DNA from: a virus
Taxonomy: Duplodnaviria; Heunggongvirae; Uroviricota; Caudoviricetes
Direction: 5' to 3' (one strand)
DNA length: 6,326 bases
IMG/VR virus record: IMGVR_UViG_2690316345_000003
Coordinates: 1 to 6,326 of that record
This document shows positions 1-5,202 of the stretch, in pieces. Within the stretch, counting starts at the first letter, position 1. Every line of letters begins with the position of its first letter. The notes under the pieces are model-generated. The model made no database searches, was not told the DNA's origin, and saw nothing but the letters and a program-made list of their open reading frames with translations. A program made the translations under genes and the position numbers.

Positions 1-115
1 CCTGGCACGGCTGGGACGGAAGTCGCTGTCGTTCTCAAAATCGGTGGAGCTGCATGACAAAGTCATCGGGCATTATCTGAACATAAAACACTATCAATAA
101 GTTGGAGTCATTACC
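1..115 (+). mobile_element. IS1: IS1 insertion sequence, right (3') end only; the window begins inside the element
   Basis: Positions 1-115 match the IS1 right end as I recall it (…CTGGCACGGCTGGGACGGAAGTCGCTG…AAGTTGGAGTCATTACC), ending in the terminal inverted repeat (reverse complement GGTAATGACTCCAACTTATTGATAGTG). Identification is from memory of the IS1 sequence, not a search. Confidence 0.9.
2..100 (+). CDS. insB: IS1 transposase InsB, C-terminal fragment (5' end lies outside the window)
   Basis: Frame 2 translates to [32 protein letters not shown] with stop TAA at 98-100, which matches the InsB C-terminus as I recall it. Confidence 0.8.
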
Positions 116-332
116 CACTCCCACAAACAAAATCATTCCGGGCGATGGGCGCACTCTGGTTGTTCGCTTCGACAAATTCGGCAACGTCGAATTCACTGAA
201 ACCGTTCCTGATGGCGCTCTCGTCTGTACCCTGGACACTTTCCGCCTTTATCTGGAGAAACAGGGCTGGACTCTTGTAAACCGAAGCGCAATTAAAAATA
301 TGACCGTCGAGCAGTTGCTGAGTATTAAATAG
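116..332 (+). pseudogene. 3' fragment of an unidentified protein-coding gene, apparently 5'-truncated at the IS1 junction
   Basis: An open frame runs from inside IS1 to TAG at 330-332 (…PTNKIIPGDGRTLVVRFDKFGNVEFTETVPDGALVCTLDTFRLYLEKQGWTLVNRSAIKNMTVEQLLSIK*). There is no in-frame ATG or ribosome-binding site between the IS1 boundary and residue KNM. Codon choice looks coding and the segment is more GC-rich than the AT-rich kilR/ydaE/racC genes downstream. I do not recognise the protein. Confidence 0.4.
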
Positions 333-378
333 TTTTCTGGAATTTTCTTAATACGAGAAATTTATTAAGGAGATAATT

Positions 379-600
379 ATGATTGCTCATCACTTCGGAA
401 CTGATGAAATACCACGTCAGTGTGTGACTCCTGGCGATTATGTTCTTCATGAAGGCCGGACATATATCGCCTCGGCAAACAATATTAAAAAGCGAAAACT
501 TTATATTCGTAGCCTGACTACAAAAACATGCATTACTGACTGCATGATTAAAGTCTTCCTCGGTCGTGATGGTTTACCTGTAAAGGCGGAGTCATGGTGA
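379..600 (+). CDS. kilR: KilR, Rac prophage cell-division (FtsZ) inhibitor, 73 aa
   Basis: ATG at 379 is preceded by AAGGAG at 368-373. The product [73 protein letters not shown] matches KilR of E. coli K-12 as I recall it in length and near-identical sequence. Confidence 0.85.
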
Positions 601-770
601 TGACTAAGAAAATAAAATGTGCTTACCACCTTTGCAAAAAAGACGTTGAAGAAAGCAAAGCTATTGAAAGAATGCTTCACTTCATGCACGGGACTTTATC
701 AAAAGACGAACCGAGAAAATATTGCAGTGAAGCTTGTGCCGAAAAAGACCAGATGGCACACGAACTTTAA
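600..770 (+). CDS. ydaE: YdaE-like small Cys-rich (putative zinc-binding) Rac prophage protein, 56 aa
   Basis: Not in the ORF track because it is under 60 aa. ATG at 600-602 overlaps the kilR stop (ATGGTGATGA). Translation is [56 protein letters not shown] with two cysteine pairs (C-x4-C … C-x3-C). It matches my recollection of YdaE. Confidence 0.75.
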   Translation: MTKKIKCAYHLCKKDVEESKAIERMLHFMHGTLSKDEPRKYCSEACAEKDQMAHEL

Positions 771-843
771 TTAATTGACTATTCGAAACTGAATTTATGC
801 CAGCAATGGCAGGGATTCGCTCAACCTTAATTAAGGAGAAAAA

Positions 844-1120
844 ATGATTACCAGTTATGAAGCCACTGTTGTAACTACCGATGACATTGTTCACGAGGTT
901 AATCTGGAAGGAAAGCGTATTGGCTACGTGATTAAAACAGAAAATAAAGAAACCCCCATTCACTGTGGTTGATATCGATGGTCCATCAGGCAACGTAAAA
1001 ACACTTGATGAAGGTGTCAAAAAAATGTGCCTGGTGCATATCGGAAAGAATCTGCCCGCAGAAAAAAAAGCCGAATTTCTGGCAACTCTGATTGCAATGA
1101 AATTAAAAGGTGAAATCTGA
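844..1120 (+). pseudogene. racC: racC interrupted by a +1 frameshift in a C5 homopolymer (953-957); would be 91 aa if intact
   Basis: AAGGAG at 834-839 precedes ATG at 844. Frame 1 gives MITSYEATVVTTDDIVHEVNLEGKRIGYVIKTENKETPIHCG* with stop at 970-972. The next frame is open from 932 and reads …PFTVVDIDGPSGNVKTLDEGVKKMCLVHIGKNLPAEKKAEFLATLIAMKLKGEI* with stop at 1118-1120. Removing one C from the CCCCC run restores a continuous 91-aa product matching RacC as I recall it. Confidence 0.7.
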
Positions 1121-1125
1121 AAGAA

Positions 1126-1150
1126 ATAGCCTGCGTATGGCGCAGGCTAT
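1126..1150 (+). promoter_or_regulatory. Perfect 10-bp inverted repeat (stem-loop) in the racC-recE intergenic region
   Basis: ATAGCCTGCG (1126-1135), loop TATGG, then CGCAGGCTAT (1141-1150), which is the exact reverse complement. No U-tract follows, so it is not a canonical intrinsic terminator. It lies about 70 bp upstream of the recE start. Confidence 0.5.
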
Positions 1151-1220
1151 GAACAGTGTGTATCCGGCAAGATTATTCACTGAACAAACGAATTTTAATC
1201 TGAGTTGAGGTTAAAAAACA

Positions 1221-3968
1221 ATGAGCACCGATAAACAAGTTTACCCACTGTATTACGAAGCAAAAAATGACAAAGTAAGAAAACGTCTCGGTATTAAAGG
1301 CGGTTTCTACTGGACTGAAGCGAAAAAATTATCCATTGCCATATCCCGTGGTGCTGTTGCTATTGACGATGCTGGCTACGATGAAGATGACTTTAAAAAA
1401 CCCGTTCGCGTAAATTTCCCCGTCGTGAATGACCTTCCACCGGAAGGCGTGTTTGATACTGAATTCTGCAACCGCTATGAAAAAGGCGGGGAAGATGGCA
1501 TCACCATGATGGCTATATCCTTCAATGACAACATCAACGGTGAAGATGCCACAACTGCTGGCGATGACAACGATGACCCGGACGGAACTATTCCGGATGA
1601 TGTGGAGAAAAGCGAATCCCCGGACAGCGACGATGACTGTTCTGAGTGTGAAATTCCCGTCGCCACTCTGAGCCTTACTCATCGCTTCCTTCACCTCTTC
1701 TTCTTCAGCAAGGATGAAGATGGAAAATACCGGCATCACGCCACACCAGAACAACGCAATAACGTGATCCGTATGGAGATGGACACAGAGGACAGTTACC
1801 TTCAGAGCCTGCTTACTGCTGTGCGCGCCGCACATCATGAACTGGATAAACTGACGAACTATCACCTTAGTCGCCTGGCTGAATCTGTAGGGAAAGCATT
1901 CCCCCACTCTGCAAATCATCGCATCAGCCCGGCTGAATTCGACAAGTTCATTTCCACCTGGATGAAAACTGACTACCTTGATCAGGGCCTGCTGACAAAA
2001 GAATGGCAGAACGGAAATTATGTTTCAGGAATTACCCGTACGCCTTCCGGTGCTAACGCTGGCGGCGGAAATATTACCGATCGTGGTGAAGGATTCAAAC
2101 ATGATAAGACATCACTCGCACGAGATGTAGCCACCGGCGTTCTGGCCCGTTCAATGGATGTGGATATTTATAACCTTCATCCGGCACACGCTAAACGTGT
2201 CGAGGAAATTATCGCTGAAAATAAACCGCCCTTTTCTGTTTTCCGCGACAAATTCATCACCATGCCTGGCGGGCTGGATTATTCCCGCGCCATCGTGGTT
2301 GCGTCCGTAAAAGAAGCACCAATTGGGATCGAGGTTATCCCTGCGCATGTCACTGAATATCTGAACAAGGTGCTGATTGAAACCGATCATGCCAACCCTG
2401 ATCCGGAAATCGTGGATATTGCCTGCGGTCGTTCCTCTGCCCCGATGCCGCAGCGTGTAACAGAAGAAGGAAAACACGATGGTGAAGAAAAACCGCAACC
2501 ATCTTGCGCAATGGCAGATAAACAGGCAACGGCTGAAACAGTGGAACCGGATGCAACTGAACATCATCAGGACACGCAGCCGCTGGATGCTCAGTCACAG
2601 GTAAATTCTGTTGATGCGAAATATCAGAAACTGCGGGCAGAACTCCATGAAGCCCGGAAAACCATTCCGCCCAAAAATCCTGTCGATGCCGACAAATTGC
2701 TGGCTGCCTCTCGCGGAGAATTTGTTGAAGGGATTAGCGACCCGAATGATCCGAAATGGATTAAGGGGATCCAGACCCGCGATTCTGTGTACCAGAATCA
2801 GCCAGAAACGGAACAGAACGACCAGAAAGCGGAACAGAACAGCCCAAATACGCAACAAAACGAGCCAGAAACGAAACAACCTGAACCAGTAGTGCAACAG
2901 GAACCGGAAAAGATCTGCACCGCCTGCGGCCAGAGGAGTGGCGGCAACTGCCCTGATTGTGGCGCGGTGATGGGCGACGCAACATACCAGGAAACATTCG
3001 ATGAAGAGAATCAGGTTGAAGCTAAGGAAAATGATCCGGAGGAAATGGAAGGCGCTGAACATCCGCACAATGAGAATGCTGGCAGCGATCCGCATCGCGA
3101 TTGCAGTGATGAAACTGGCGAAGTCGCAGATCCCGTAATCGTAGAAGACATAGAGCCAGGTATTTATTACGGAATTTCGAATGAGAATTACCACGTAGGT
3201 CCCGGTGTCAGTAAGTCTCAGCTCGATGACATTGCTGATACTCCGGCACTGTATTTGTGGCGTAAAAATGCCCCCGTGGACAACACAAAGACAAAAACGC
3301 TCGATTTAGGAACCGCTTTCCACTTCCGGGTACTTGAACCGGAAGAATTCAGTAACCGCTTTATCGTAGCACCTGAATTTAACCGCCGTACAAACGCCGG
3401 AAAAGAAGAAGAGAAAGCGTTTCTGATGGAATGCGCAAGCACAGGAAAAACGGTTATCACTGCGGAAGAAGGTCGGAAAATTGAACTCATGTATCAAAGC
3501 GTTATGGCTTTGCCGCTGGGGCAATGGCTTGTTGAAAGCGCCGGACACGCTGAATCATCAATTTACTGGGAAGATCCTGAAACAGGAATTTTGTGTCGGT
3601 GCCGTCCGGACAAAATTATCCCTGAATTTCACTGGATCATGGACGTGAAAACTACGGCGGATATTCAACGATTCAAAACCGCTTATTACGACTACCGCTA
3701 TCACGTTCAGGATGCATTCTACAGTGACGGTTATGAAGCACAGTTTGGAGTGCAGCCAACTTTCGTTTTTCTGGTTGCCAGCACAACTATTGAATGCGGA
3801 CGTTATCCGGTTGAAATTTTCATGATGGGCGAAGAAGCAAAACTGGCAGGTCAGCTGGAATATCACCGCAATCTGCGAACCCTGGCTGACTGCCTCAATA
3901 CCAATGAATGGCCAGCTATTAAGACGTTATCACTGCCCCGCTGGGCTAAGGAATATGCAAATGACTAA
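1221..3968 (+). CDS. recE: RecE (exonuclease VIII), 915 aa, 5'-3' dsDNA exonuclease with a C-terminal PD-(D/E)XK nuclease domain
   Basis: GAGG at 1207-1210 precedes ATG at 1221 and a single long ORF follows. From about residue 255 onward the protein closely matches E. coli RecE as I recall it (…GLLTKEW…ANAGGGN…DRGEGF…ARSMD…[12 protein letters not shown]…). The C-terminal domain carries a PD-(D/E)XK signature (RPD at 3609-3611; MDVK at 3639-3650). A C-x2-C-x7-C-x2-C motif lies at 2916-2960. The stop overlaps the recT start. Confidence 0.9.
2791..2910 (+). repeat. Imperfect short tandem repeats (CCAGAAACGGAACAGAAC-like) encoding a Q/E/N/P-rich linker within recE
   Basis: GCCAGAAACGGAACAGAAC (2801-2819), CCAGAAAGCGGAACAGAAC (2823-2840) and GCCAGAAACGAAACAAC (2864-2880) encode [38 protein letters not shown]. 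The antisense track ORF 2595..3194 is a by-product of this repetitive stretch. Confidence 0.5.
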
Positions 3969-4770
3969 GCAACCACCAATCGCAAAAGCCGATCTGCAAA
4001 AAACTCAGGGAAACCGTGCACCAGCAGCAATTAAAAATAACGACGTGATTAGTTTTATTAACCAGCCATCAATGAAAGAGCAACTGGCAGCAGCTCTTCC
4101 ACGCCATATGACGGCTGAACGTATGATCCGTATCGCCACCACAGAAATTCGTAAAGTTCCGGCGTTAGGAAACTGTGACACTATGAGTTTTGTCAGTGCA
4201 ATCGTACAGTGTTCACAGCTCGGACTTGAGCCAGGTAGCGCCCTCGGTCATGCATATTTACTGCCTTTTGGTAATAAAAACGAAAAGAGCGGTAAAAAAA
4301 ACGTTCAGCTAATCATTGGCTATCGCGGCATGATTGATCTGGCTCGCCGTTCAGGTCAAATCGCCAGCCTGTCAGCCCGTGTTGTCCGTGAAGGTGACGA
4401 ATTTAATTTCGAATTTGGCCTTGATGAAAAGTTAATACACCGCCCAGGAGAAAACGAAGATGCCCCGGTTACCCACGTCTATGCTGTCGCAAGACTGAAA
4501 GACGGAGGTACTCAGTTTGAAGTTATGACGCGCAAACAGATTGAGCTGGTGCGCAGCCAGAGTAAGGCTGGTAATAACGGGCCATGGGTAACTCACTGGG
4601 AAGAAATGGCAAAAAAAACGGCTATTCGTCGCCTGTTTAAATACCTGCCTGTCTCAATTGAAATCCAGCGTGCAGTATCAATGGATGAAAAGGAACCACT
4701 GACAATCGATCCGGCAGACTCCTCTGTATTAACCGGGGAATACAGTGTGATCGATAATTCAGAAGAATAA
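3961..4770 (+). CDS. recT: RecT single-strand annealing protein (RecT/Redβ family), 269 aa
   Basis: ATG at 3961 lies 8 nt after an AGGA core (3949-3952). The track's upstream extension from 3904 is rejected because ATG 3955 is only 2 nt from that core. The product [36 protein letters not shown]… matches E. coli RecT as I recall it. The start overlaps the recE stop in ATGACTAA. Confidence 0.9.
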
Positions 4771-4826: not shown

Positions 4827-5021
4827 ATGAGATATGACGATGTTAAACCATGTCCGTTTTGTGGTTGTCCATCTGTTACGGTGAAAGCAATTTCAGGATA
4901 TTACCGGGCAAAATGCAACGGATGCGAATCCCGAACTGGCTATGGTGGAAGTGAAAAAGAAGCACTCGAAAGATGGAATAAACGAACTACTGGAAATAAT
5001 AATGGAGGTGTTCATGTATAA
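4827..5021 (+). CDS. ralR: RalR/Lar restriction-alleviation protein, 64 aa, Cys-rich zinc-finger-like
   Basis: Translation from ATG 4827 is MRYDDVKPCPFCGCPSVTVKAISGYYRAKCNGCESRTGYGGSEKEALERWNKRTTGNNNGGVHV*, which matches Rac RalR (Lar) as I recall it, with a C-x2-C … C-x2-C motif. No strong Shine-Dalgarno sequence is present; in-frame ATGs at 4788 and 4815 are possible but less consistent with the known protein. Confidence 0.8.
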   Translation: MRYDDVKPCPFCGCPSVTVKAISGYYRAKCNGCESRTGYGGSEKEALERWNKRTTGNNNGGVHV

Positions 5022-5202
5022 AATAACTGCCACTATTGAAAAAGAAGGTGGCACTCCTACTAACTGGACAAGATATTCAAAATCTAAATTAACGAAATCA
5101 GAATGCGAAAAAATGCTCTCAGGGAAAAAAGAAGCAGGCGTGTCCAGAGAGCAGAAAGTAAAGCTGATAAATTTTAATTGCGAGAAACTTCTGTCCTCGT
5201 GA
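5014..5202 (+). CDS. ydaC: YdaC-like small Rac prophage protein of unknown function, 62 aa
   Basis: GGAGG at about 5003-5007 lies 6 nt before ATG 5014. Translation is MYKITATIEKEGGTPTNWTRYSKSKLTKSECEKMLSGKKEAGVSREQKVKLINFNCEKLLSS*. The start overlaps the ralR stop (ATGTATAA). The track's start at 4942 is rejected in favour of the ribosome-binding-site-supported ATG. Confidence 0.65.
   Translation: MYKITATIEKEGGTPTNWTRYSKSKLTKSECEKMLSGKKEAGVSREQKVKLINFNCEKLLSS

What the first reader, a model, noticed from the sequence alone, without database searches (positions are those of the whole stretch)
1221..2000. RecE has a highly acidic N-terminal region that looks more divergent than the rest of the protein
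From about residue 255 onward (…[42 protein letters not shown]…) the protein tracks E. coli K-12 RecE closely as far as I can recall. The first 250 or so residues seem to share only short islands with it (for example [12 protein letters not shown]) and include a strongly acidic stretch ([32 protein letters not shown]). That pattern suggests a mosaic N-terminal module on a conserved nuclease core. This rests on memory of the K-12 sequence and is not verified.
Basis: partly seen in the sequence, partly recalled or inferred. Interest (0 to 1): 0.45.

Follow-up and report, generated by a model that had tools for sequence, protein, structure and literature searches.

The report
Mosaic N-terminus of prophage RecE
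The front end of this prophage's RecE recombination nuclease really is very different from the E. coli K-12 version, because a roughly 780-base patch from a Shiga-toxin-type phage gene was recombined into it; this is ordinary phage gene-shuffling in a part of the protein whose job is still unknown.

Summary
The 915-aa ORF at 1221-3968 is RecE. Against real K-12 RecE, residues 1-240 are about 24% identical and residues 271-915 about 91%. The only strong island is NFPVVNDLP. The acidic stretch (residues 115-146) has 15 of 32 D/E and net charge -14.

The cause is recombination, not drift:
- nt 369-1228 are 97.7% K-12-like.
- nt 1229-1394 are 98% identical to another Rac-type recE (strain AVS0790).
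- nt 1395-2176 (codons 59-319) differ at 3 sites from the nuclease-less "RecE-2" gene of Stx-type phage PhiR5_2.
- After nt 2177 the gene is Rac-like again, apart from one more foreign patch at 2781-2960.

The true crossover is therefore near residue 319, not 255. Residues 250-319 only look conserved because they are under constraint.

The K-12 and window versions are homologous alleles of the same domains (hhalign 98% probability, 17% identity). AlphaFold predicts an α/β domain (1-100), a disordered acidic linker (102-139) and a helical domain (141-272). No fold or family match gives a function, and the literature calls the RecE N-terminus "of unknown function".

The same N-terminal region is joined elsewhere to a DEDD exonuclease or to no nuclease. 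The gene is a rare allele (3 of 5426 genomes) of a known gene, produced by a textbook process. Interest is low to moderate.

The parts
1221..3968 (+). recE (exodeoxyribonuclease VIII), 915 aa, intact
   Evidence: ORF. 100% identical to annotated recE of NZ_CP031916.1. NCBIfam NF007259 equivalog scores 1606 bits against a cutoff of 1269. Pfam PF06630 and PF12684 both match.
369..1228 (+). K-12 Rac-like left flank: kilR, ydaE, a racC-like frameshifted ORF, the RBS and the first 8 nt of recE. The left crossover lies in the short island around the RBS and start codon.
   Evidence: blastn gives 97.7% identity to K-12 over 369-1228. The alignment around the start codon shows all lineages sharing GAGGTT..CAATGAGC.
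1229..1394 (+). Codons 4-58: N-terminal half of the α/β domain, of the 'A2' allele lineage. Closest relative is the Rac-type recE of strain AVS0790.
   Evidence: 98.2% identical to AVS0790, against 39% for K-12 and 72% for PhiR5_2.
1395..2176 (+). Imported patch, codons 59-319, essentially identical to the nuclease-less RecE-like gene of Stx-type phage PhiR5_2
   Evidence: Only 3 mismatches to PhiR5_2 (nt 1832, 2030, 2146) in 782 nt, with dense mismatches on both sides. K-12 mismatches are dense up to nt 2168.
1221..1520 (+). Predicted α/β N-terminal domain (residues 1-100). Its C-terminal half, including [12 protein letters not shown] at nt 1413-1448, is the best-conserved part of the first 300 residues family-wide.
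   Evidence: Full-length AF2 model with a 68-sequence alignment gives pLDDT 87-98, with E6-14 H17-23 E27-34 H37-50 H82-85 E86-89 E95-98.
1524..1637 (+). Acidic, predicted-disordered linker (residues 102-139).
   Evidence: pLDDT 36-41 in both models. Net charge -14 per 32 aa. The tract falls in low-occupancy, variable-length alignment columns. No tandem repeats are present.
1641..2036 (+). Helical domain 1 (residues 141-272), 'B2' allele. It ends in the invariant GLLTKEW motif.
   Evidence: pLDDT 80-96 with six helices. Homologous to the K-12 'B1' allele by hhalign: probability 98.3%, E 1.5e-14, 17% identity.
2037..2090 (+). Invariant but low-confidence loop R-T-x-S-G-A-N-A-G-G-G (residues 273-290)
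   Evidence: Invariant columns R273 T274 S276-G282 in alignment A1. pLDDT is below 50 for residues 275-283.
2091..2456 (+). Helical domain 2 (residues 291-412). The right crossover, at nt ~2169-2176, lies in its first part.
   Evidence: pLDDT 84-98. Nucleotide identity to K-12 steps from 79% to 96% at nt 2177.
2781..2960 (+). Second foreign patch, 100% identical to the DEDD-type 'exonuclease' gene of strain FORC_042. It contains a 21-nt tandem array at 2793-2879.
   Evidence: Sliding identity: FORC42 98-100%, K-12 20-85%. TRF reports period 21 with 3.8 copies.
3138..3920 (+). PD-(D/E)XK nuclease domain (residues ~640-900), K-12-like
3961..4770 (+). recT, overlapping the recE stop by 8 nt
   Evidence: Annotation of L001 and the ORF list.

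Best explanation
The finding region encodes the first three structural units of RecE's non-catalytic N-terminal region: a ~100-residue α/β domain, an acidic flexible linker (residues ~102-139), and a helical domain (residues ~141-272). In this strain these units belong to allelic lineages different from K-12's because the gene is a recombinant.

A Rac-type recE of the AVS0790-like lineage supplies codons 4-58 and most of the gene from codon 320 on. It received a ~780-nt conversion patch (nt 1395-2176, codons 59-319) from the nuclease-less RecE-like ('RecE-2') gene of an Stx-type lambdoid phage. A further short patch at nt 2781-2960 comes from a DEDD-exonuclease-type relative.

Each junction lies in a short island conserved across lineages: the RBS and start codon, the [17 protein letters not shown] segment, and the start of helical domain 2. 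This is what homologous or 'relaxed' homologous recombination between co-infecting or co-resident lambdoid elements produces. Both the recombinant structure and the homology of the alleles are shown here.

The following is inferred. The N-terminal region is an accessory, portable adaptor rather than part of the catalytic machinery. The conserved face of the α/β domain docks a conserved partner. The acidic tract is a variable-length flexible tether. The fast-diverging helical domain tunes specificity. The whole unit is attached to whichever nuclease the phage uses: PD-(D/E)XK, DEDD, or none in cis.
For: Recombinant structure:
- blastn: K-12 97.7% over 369-1228, no match over 1229-1962, 93.3% afterwards.
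- Sliding identity against four relatives.
- SNP-level junctions: 3 mismatches to PhiR5_2 across 1395-2176.
- Step from 79% to 96% nucleotide identity to K-12 at nt 2177, with 21 synonymous and 14 non-synonymous codon differences in 1963-2176.
- AVS0790 is 98.2% identical over 1229-1394.
- The same recombinant is present in 3 independently assembled complete genomes, so it is not an assembly artefact.

Allelic and modular nature:
- All four A/B allele combinations are seen.
- The K-12-type cassette is in 1442 of 5426 genomes and the window-type in 112.
- The cassette is present in inducible Stx phages in the order kil-hyp-'exoVIII'-gam-bet-exo.
- hhalign of B2 against B1 gives 98.3% probability.
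- PF06630 is still matched at 41.9 bits against a cutoff of 25.

Architecture:
- AF2 full-length model.

Portability:
- Of 74 family representatives of at least 550 aa, 23 carry a PD-(D/E)XK nuclease, 12 a DEDD exonuclease, 13 a short tail without nuclease, and 26 nothing detectable by BLAST.

Accessory role (literature):
- The nuclease domain alone substitutes genetically. [quoted passage not shown] The N-terminal function is 'unknown' or 'unclear' (PMC11611040, PMC11610958).
- Nuclease-less 'RecE-2' proteins are noted with unknown role (PMC12315714).
- Rad52-like recombinases recombine phage and prophage DNA at ~78% identity (PMC3945230).
Against: - The direction of transfer (phage to prophage, or the reverse) is inferred only from which lineage surrounds the patch. 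No tree-based recombination test was run.
- No donor copy is present in the source genome today. The cassette has a single place in NZ_CP031916.1.
- The functional part is weakly supported. No partner is identified.
- No structural or sequence relative with a known function was found.
- Low pLDDT is not proof of disorder. My first, shallow-alignment model wrongly made residues 1-142 look disordered.
Confidence: 0.85

Rival explanations
1. Gradual divergence: the N-terminus is simply a fast-evolving, weakly constrained part of an orthologous recE, with no recombination involved.
For: The N-terminal region is dispensable for the core recombination function (PMC11611040). The linker is low-complexity and variable in length.
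Against: The identity profile is stepwise, not graded: 97.7% to undetectable at nt 1228/1229, and 79% to 96% at nt 2177. The divergent block is 99.6% identical to a gene in a different phage type. Sub-modules assort independently.
Confidence: 0.03
2. Non-homologous replacement: an unrelated sequence was inserted in place of the K-12-type N-terminus, giving a structurally different module.
For: Pairwise BLASTP of window residues 96-250 against K-12 residues 96-216 finds only a 10-residue patch at E 0.011. DNA similarity is undetectable.
Against: Profile-profile comparison gives 98.3% probability, E 1.5e-14, over 99 columns. PF06630 matches both proteins. Intermediate sequences match both types. 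The N-terminal domains align at ~32% identity.
Confidence: 0.04
3. The acidic tract is a functional DNA mimic or decoy, in the manner of Ocr, ArdA or Gam-type inhibitors. It would occupy the DNA-binding site of a host nuclease or restriction enzyme, or auto-inhibit RecE or RecT.
For: Net charge is -14 over 32 residues, the most acidic among 37 family members compared (median -7). A second acidic tract lies directly before the nuclease domain. The gene sits among anti-host early-left-operon functions (kil, gam) in phages.
Against: The tract is predicted disordered rather than a rigid charge array. Its sequence and length are not conserved, and K-12 manages with -7. PDB profile searches returned no Ocr, ArdA or Gam match, and the N-terminal region matched only PF06630 in Pfam. 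The Stx phages that carry it also encode Gam.
Confidence: 0.1
4. Decay: in a defective prophage the dispensable N-terminus is drifting toward a pseudogene, and the odd sequence is junk.
For: The host element is a ~9-kb prophage remnant, with frameshifted racC-like and nleC genes nearby.
Against: The 915-codon ORF is intact. The patch is near-identical to the gene of a phage deposited as a complete genome with E. coli K-12 MG1655 named as host. Synonymous changes exceed non-synonymous ones in 1963-2176. AF2 predicts confident folds for residues 1-100 and 141-412.
Confidence: 0.03
5. A separate gene on the opposite strand (ORF 1329..1919, 196 aa) explains the unusual composition.
For: The antisense frame is open for 196-197 codons in the window and in PhiR5_2.
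Against: Asp/Glu/Ser-rich sense codons are free of stops when read in reverse, so long antisense ORFs are expected. The ORF is truncated to 166 codons in the 2013C-4282 relative. The sense frame has family, profile and structure support.
Confidence: 0.01

Closest known systems
E. coli K-12 Rac prophage RecE (exonuclease VIII, 866 aa; nuclease-domain structure PDB 3H4R)
   Different: Residues 1-240 are only 24% identical. The α/β domain and helical domain 1 belong to other allelic lineages (17% identity for helical domain 1). The linker is about 16 residues longer and twice as acidic (-14 against -7). There is a 14-residue repeat expansion at residues ~525-555.
Nuclease-less 'RecE-2' proteins of Stx-type and other lambdoid phages (for example PhiR5_2 XSB41351.1, 690 aa; POCJ13; 75/02 Stx), noted in PMC12315714
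   Same: nt 1395-2176 of the window are 99.6% identical to the PhiR5_2 gene. The N-terminal architecture is the same and PF06630 matches both.
   Different: Those proteins end in a short hydrophobic tail instead of a PD-(D/E)XK domain. They sit upstream of gam-bet-exo rather than recT.
DEDD (Rv2179c-like, PF16473) 'exonuclease' proteins of lambdoid prophages (for example FORC_042 WP_104951148.1, 814 aa)
   Same: They share the N-terminal ~600-residue region, including the window-type α/β domain (83% nt identity) and a segment 100% identical to nt 2781-2960.
   Different: Helical domain 1 is of the K-12 type. The C-terminal domain is a 3'-5' DEDD exonuclease. In that locus there is no adjacent annealase gene.
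Lambdoid phage mosaicism through (relaxed) homologous recombination between phages and defective prophages (De Paepe et al. 2014, PMC3945230)
   Same: Sharp switches of closest relative occur at short conserved islands. One crossover lies in sequence ~79% identical between the parental types, the range in which Rad52-like recombinases were shown to act.
   Different: Here the exchange is intragenic and partly cuts through a predicted domain (codon 59) rather than falling at gene boundaries. The direction of transfer is not established.

Membership tests
RecE / exodeoxyribonuclease VIII (NCBIfam NF007259 equivalog) | Whole-protein score above the curated equivalog cutoff | tested here: met
   1606.4 bits against a cutoff of 1269, covering residues 1-915.
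RecE / exodeoxyribonuclease VIII | C-terminal PD-(D/E)XK nuclease domain with the RecE fold and catalytic motif | tested here: met
RecE / exodeoxyribonuclease VIII | N-terminal Exonuc_VIII domain (Pfam PF06630) | tested here: met
   41.9 bits against a gathering cutoff of 25, over residues 53-197. This is weak compared with 327 bits for K-12.
RecE / exodeoxyribonuclease VIII | Operon partner recT immediately downstream | tested here: met
   recT is at 3961-4770 and overlaps recE by 8 nt.
RecE / exodeoxyribonuclease VIII | 5'-3' dsDNA exonuclease activity and RecT-dependent recombination | not testable with these tools
   Inferred from 97% identity of the nuclease domain to the characterised enzyme.
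Lambdoid mosaic (recombinant) gene | Adjacent segments have different closest relatives, with abrupt identity transitions | tested here: met
   Five switches of closest relative along the gene. The patch has 3 mismatches in 782 nt and is flanked by dense mismatches.
Lambdoid mosaic (recombinant) gene | Alternative alleles of each module occur in several combinations in the population | tested here: met
   A1B1, A2B1, A2B2 and A1B2' are all observed. Three kinds of C-terminal partner are seen.
Lambdoid mosaic (recombinant) gene | Statistical support from a formal recombination test or incongruent phylogenies | not tested
   No GARD, RDP or tree comparison was run. The evidence is identity profiles only.
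Acidic DNA-mimic inhibitors (Ocr, ArdA, Gam-like) | Folded, rigid array of acidic side chains that mimics B-DNA, or homology to a known mimic | tested here: not met
   The tract has pLDDT 36-41 and is variable in length and sequence. PDB profile searches found no such relative, and the N-terminal region matched only PF06630 in Pfam.
Intrinsically disordered acidic linker | Low predicted order, low hydrophobic content, poor sequence conservation with conserved composition, and length variation among homologues | tested here: met
   pLDDT is below 50 with both shallow and deep alignments. Alignment columns are low-occupancy. An acidic tract follows the DLPxEG island in most of 37 relatives, with median net charge -7. 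Disorder itself has not been measured.

The most novel reading that the evidence does not exclude
The first ~420 residues of RecE-family proteins (α/β domain, acidic tether and two helical domains) could be an autonomous, exchangeable targeting or adaptor unit of lambdoid phages. It would be coupled in cis to different nucleases (PD-(D/E)XK or DEDD), or act in trans beside Gam-Bet-Exo. Its deeply diverged, freely reassorting alleles (17-30% identity, kept in one species) would reflect partner specificity or an arms race with a host factor or defence system, rather than neutral drift. In that case the allele in this window would differ functionally from K-12's, for example in how well it supports linear-linear recombination or in which hosts it works.
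Probability: 0.2. Interest if true: 0.6.

Novelty: new member of a known kind. Interest (0 to 1): 0.3.

Why it matters
RecE/RecT is a workhorse of recombineering. Full-length RecE, including this N-terminal region, is what makes direct cloning by linear-linear recombination efficient, yet nobody knows what the N-terminus does.

This work shows three things about that region:
- It is built from discrete, homologous but deeply diverged alleles that reassort.
- It has a confidently predicted domain layout with one invariant surface motif.
- It travels with three different C-terminal partners.

That gives a concrete set of natural variants and domain boundaries for allele-swap and truncation experiments. 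In itself, though, the finding is an already annotated gene shaped by well-known phage mosaicism.

Tried and rejected
1. Shallow-alignment AlphaFold run. With residues 1-450 and 30 near-identical sequences, residues 1-142 had pLDDT below 50 and I first read them as disordered. A 68-sequence diverse alignment gave pLDDT 87-98 for residues 1-100, so that reading was an artefact. Only residues 102-139 stay low.

2. Searches for a function all came back empty:
- Foldseek against BFVD: no hit at E ≤ 1e-3.
- Profile HMM against PDB sequences for residues 1-450 and for the α/β domain alone: only spurious hits at E 0.009 to 1.
- PHROGs and NCBIfam returned only 'exonuclease' labels inherited from the C-terminus.

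3. Unrelated-insert hypothesis. It was raised by the negative pairwise BLAST and rejected by hhalign.

4. Slippage origin of the acidic tract. TRF finds no repeat there.

5. Antisense ORF 1329-1919 as a gene. Rejected.

6. A co-resident donor in the source genome. The cassette occurs once in NZ_CP031916.1.

7. Fu et al. 2012 (PMID 22544021), the one truncation study, is not held in the library. Other recombineering papers add nothing on the N-terminus.

8. The first literature search was swamped by 'receptor' because of word-start matching.

9. Zinc-site idea. C140-x2-C143 with nearby His is conserved only in B2-type alleles, H154 is Q in the B2' alleles, and I could not measure geometry. It remains an untested idea.
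Full report
**What is in the window.** The window is 100% identical to part of the chromosome of E. coli O45:H2 strain FWSEC0003 (NZ_CP031916.1), in a short lambdoid prophage remnant. The gene order there is nleC' - rha - kilR - ydaE - racC' - recE - recT - ralR - DUF1187 - xis - int. The ORF 1221..3968 (+) encodes a 915-aa protein annotated as exodeoxyribonuclease VIII, RecE. It passes the NCBIfam RecE equivalog model at 1606 bits against a cutoff of 1269. It matches Pfam PF06630 (Exonuc_VIII, residues 53-197, 41.9 bits) and PF12684 (PD-(D/E)XK-like, residues 664-899).

**Checking the observation.** I fetched the real K-12 locus (L002) and aligned the two proteins.
- Residues 1-240 share 58/240 identities (24%). 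The only strong island is NFPVVNDLP (residues 65-73).
- Residues 241-270 share 15/30.
- Residues 271-915 share 587/645 (91%).

It has 15 D/E and 1 K/R in 32 residues. The most acidic 32-residue window (net -14) is matched in only 38 of 2000 shuffles of this already acidic protein. The one caveat is that the acidity is a local tract. The N-terminal 250 residues as a whole (pI 4.79) are no more acidic than the full protein (pI 4.73). A comparably acidic tract at residues 601-660 (net -15) lies in the part shared with K-12.

**The divergence comes from recombination, and the junctions can be placed.** blastn against K-12 gives 97.7% identity for window 369-1228, which covers kilR, ydaE, racC, the RBS and the first 8 nt of recE. 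There is no detectable match for 1229-1962, and 93.3% identity from 1963 on. Sliding identity against four relatives, site-by-site mismatch lists and a fifth relative resolve the gene into these segments:
- nt 1229-1394 are 98.2% identical to the Rac-type recE of strain AVS0790, against 39% for K-12.
- nt 1395-2176 differ at only 3 of 782 positions from the 'exodeoxyribonuclease VIII' gene of Stx-type phage PhiR5_2, with dense mismatches immediately on both sides.
- nt 2177-2780 are Rac-like again (AVS0790 96.4%, K-12 93.0%).
- nt 2781-2960 are 98-100% identical to a gene from strain FORC_042, where K-12 is only 20-85% by 60-nt window.
- nt 2961-3968 are 98.4% K-12-like.

Over nt 1963-2176, where the proteins already look alike, the DNA is only 79% identical to K-12, with 21 synonymous and 14 non-synonymous codon differences. 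Identity jumps to 96% after nt 2177. The real right-hand crossover is therefore near codon 317-319, not residue 255. Residue 255 marks the start of a strongly constrained segment (GLLTKEW...[10 protein letters not shown], invariant in alignment A1). All junctions fall in short islands conserved across lineages. The same recombinant, spanning both junctions, occurs in three independently assembled complete genomes: O45:H2 FWSEC0003, O111:H8 strain 8E and 2014C-3061. That excludes an assembly artefact and shows the allele is rare, at 3 of 5426 genomes.

**Population picture.**
- The full window-type cassette (nt 1229-1962) is in 112 of 5426 E. coli genomes. Matches covering only its first ~280 nt bring the total to 1007 genomes.
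- The K-12-type cassette is complete in 1442 genomes.
- The window-type cassette also occurs in Stx-type and related phages: PhiR5_2, phiSTEC1589-Stx1c, POCJ13 and 75/02 Stx.
- In those phages the gene encodes a ~690-aa protein with no nuclease domain, in the order kil - hyp - gene - gam - bet - exo (also L003).

A protein alignment of 30 N-terminal sequences shows discrete alleles rather than a continuum. Sub-module A (residues ~1-95) has a K-12 type and a window type. Sub-module B (residues ~96-250) has a K-12 type, a window type and at least two more. The combinations A1B1, A2B1, A2B2 and A1B2' all exist. A third variable module follows at residues ~285-420.

**Are the alleles homologous?** Pairwise BLASTP of the two B alleles finds nothing beyond a 10-residue patch. 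That raised the possibility of an unrelated replacement. Profile-profile comparison of separately built B1 and B2 alignments gives 98.3% probability, E 1.5e-14, over 99 aligned columns at 17% identity. The α/β domains align at ~32% identity. PF06630 matches all variants with falling scores: K-12 327 bits, the A2-B1 hybrid 119 bits, and the window 42 bits. These are ancient alleles of the same domains.

**Structure.** A first AlphaFold run (residues 1-450, 30 sequences) gave pLDDT below 50 for residues 1-142. That could have reflected the shallow alignment, so I ran the exhaustive profile search. It found only 258 cluster representatives among 1.84 billion proteins, so the family is small. I then re-predicted the full protein with 68 diverse sequences. 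The results:
- Residues 1-100 become a confident α/β domain (pLDDT 87-98).
- Residues 102-139, the acidic tract, stay at 36-41.
- Residues 141-272 (pLDDT 80-96) and 290-412 (pLDDT 84-98) are helical domains joined by the invariant but low-confidence SGANAGGG loop.
- Residues 413-637 are mostly low-confidence. They contain one helix, a CxxC-x7-CxxC cluster and the second acidic tract.

Family-wide, the C-terminal half of the α/β domain (KPVR..FPVVxDLPxEG..D..WCxRYEL..DG.TW) is the best-conserved part of the first 300 residues. The acidic tract lies in low-occupancy, variable-length columns. Most relatives have an acidic D/E/S/T-rich tract in the same place, with median net charge -7. K-12 is at -7, and the window at -14 is the extreme. 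TRF finds no repeats in the tract.

[quoted passage not shown] - A 2025 survey notes nuclease-less 'RecE-2' proteins and DnaQ-like nucleases in lambdoid Rec modules, leaves their roles open, and says domain shuffling was beyond its scope (PMC12315714).

What I can add is that the N-terminal region is portable. Among 74 representatives of at least 550 aa, 23 end in a RecE-type nuclease, 12 in a DEDD (PF16473) exonuclease, 13 in a short hydrophobic tail without nuclease, and 26 in nothing BLAST could detect. A few of that last group turned out to be RecT fusions.

My best inference has moderate to low confidence. The region is a non-catalytic adaptor. Its conserved α/β face docks a conserved partner, the acidic tract is a flexible tether, and the helical domain diversifies. 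The DNA-mimic idea for the acidic tract is not excluded, but its predicted disorder and lack of conservation argue against it.

**Mechanism of the mosaic.** Homologous or 'relaxed' homologous recombination between lambdoid elements is the established source of such patchworks. Rad52-like recombinases, RecT included, were shown to recombine phage and defective-prophage DNA at ~78% identity (PMC3945230). That matches the ~79% identity between parental types at the right junction. The hosts of this allele are STEC strains, which regularly meet Stx phages. The direction of transfer and formal recombination statistics were not established.

**Verdict.**
- The junction is at codon ~319.
- At least two sub-modules assort independently.
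- The part after residue 255 is not all 'nuclease core'.
- The alleles are homologous.

This is a rare recombinant allele of a known, annotated gene, produced by a textbook process. The open and moderately interesting question is what the portable N-terminal region does.

Noticed in passing
window 5020-5198 (-), with ralR at ~4827-5021 (+): Rfam finds the RalA antitoxin sRNA (RF02694, 219 bits against a gathering score of 170). It lies antisense and downstream of the ralR toxin gene, so the type I RalR/RalA toxin-antitoxin pair is intact in this remnant (annotation).
   Followed up: partly
window 2793-2879: A 21-nt (7-codon) tandem array with 3.8 copies encodes the Q/E/N/P/T-rich stretch [26 protein letters not shown]-12 has fewer copies, giving a 14-residue indel. 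The segment is 100% identical to the DEDD-type gene of FORC_042.
   Followed up: partly
window 2916-2960 (residues 566-580): A CxxC-x7-CxxC cluster ([15 protein letters not shown]) is conserved in K-12, FORC_042 and the nuclease-less phage proteins. It looks like a small zinc ribbon inside an otherwise low-confidence region (pLDDT ~60).
   Followed up: no
window 1638-1649 (C140, C143) and His 154/158/172/173: The end of the acidic tract carries a D-D-C-x-E-C-E-(I/V) motif. It is conserved in window-type (B2, B2') alleles and absent from K-12-type (B1) alleles. It could be a metal or disulphide site capping helical domain 1. H154 is Q in some alleles, so the ligand set is unclear.
   Followed up: no
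window 2037-2090 (residues 273-290): R-T-x-S-G-A-N-A-G-G-G is invariant across all N-terminal alleles in the 30-sequence alignment, yet is predicted with pLDDT below 50 between the two helical domains. An invariant glycine-rich loop with no predicted structure suggests a binding or hinge element.
   Followed up: no
window 844-1120: The racC-like gene upstream of recE is split into two overlapping ORFs (844-972 and 965-1120). RefSeq annotates it as frameshifted, although the DNA is ~98% K-12-like.
   Followed up: no
L001 (NZ_CP031916.1 3147149-3173896): The prophage remnant is only ~9 kb. On one side it is flanked by uspF-ompN-nifJ, the genes next to the far end of Rac in K-12 (from my own knowledge of the K-12 map). 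On the other side it is flanked by yebY-copD, with a different integrase from K-12 intR. It also carries a frameshifted T3SS effector gene, nleC. This suggests a prophage-mediated rearrangement or a hybrid element.
   Followed up: no
L004 (FORC_042) 4001-6445; L003 and L005: The DEDD-exonuclease version of the protein sits between dicB/DUF1482 and xis-int, with no annealase gene next to it. The nuclease-less version always sat directly upstream of gam-bet-exo in the two loci examined.
   Followed up: partly
proteins P0080 (703 aa) and P0120 (756 aa): Some family representatives are RecE-N-terminus::RecT fusions (PF06630 plus PF03837) that lack the nuclease domain. They may be deletion derivatives or assembly or frameshift products.
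   Followed up: no
window 1329-1919 (-): A 196-codon antisense ORF lies inside the cassette and is also open in PhiR5_2. It is most simply explained by the stop-free reverse reading of Asp/Glu/Ser-rich codons, and it is truncated in the 2013C-4282 relative.
   Followed up: yes
window 1-1350 against 1351-3300: G+C rises from ~0.38-0.40 over kilR, ydaE, racC and the recE start to ~0.49-0.53 within recE. The step lies near nt 1350, inside the gene and not at its start.
   Followed up: no
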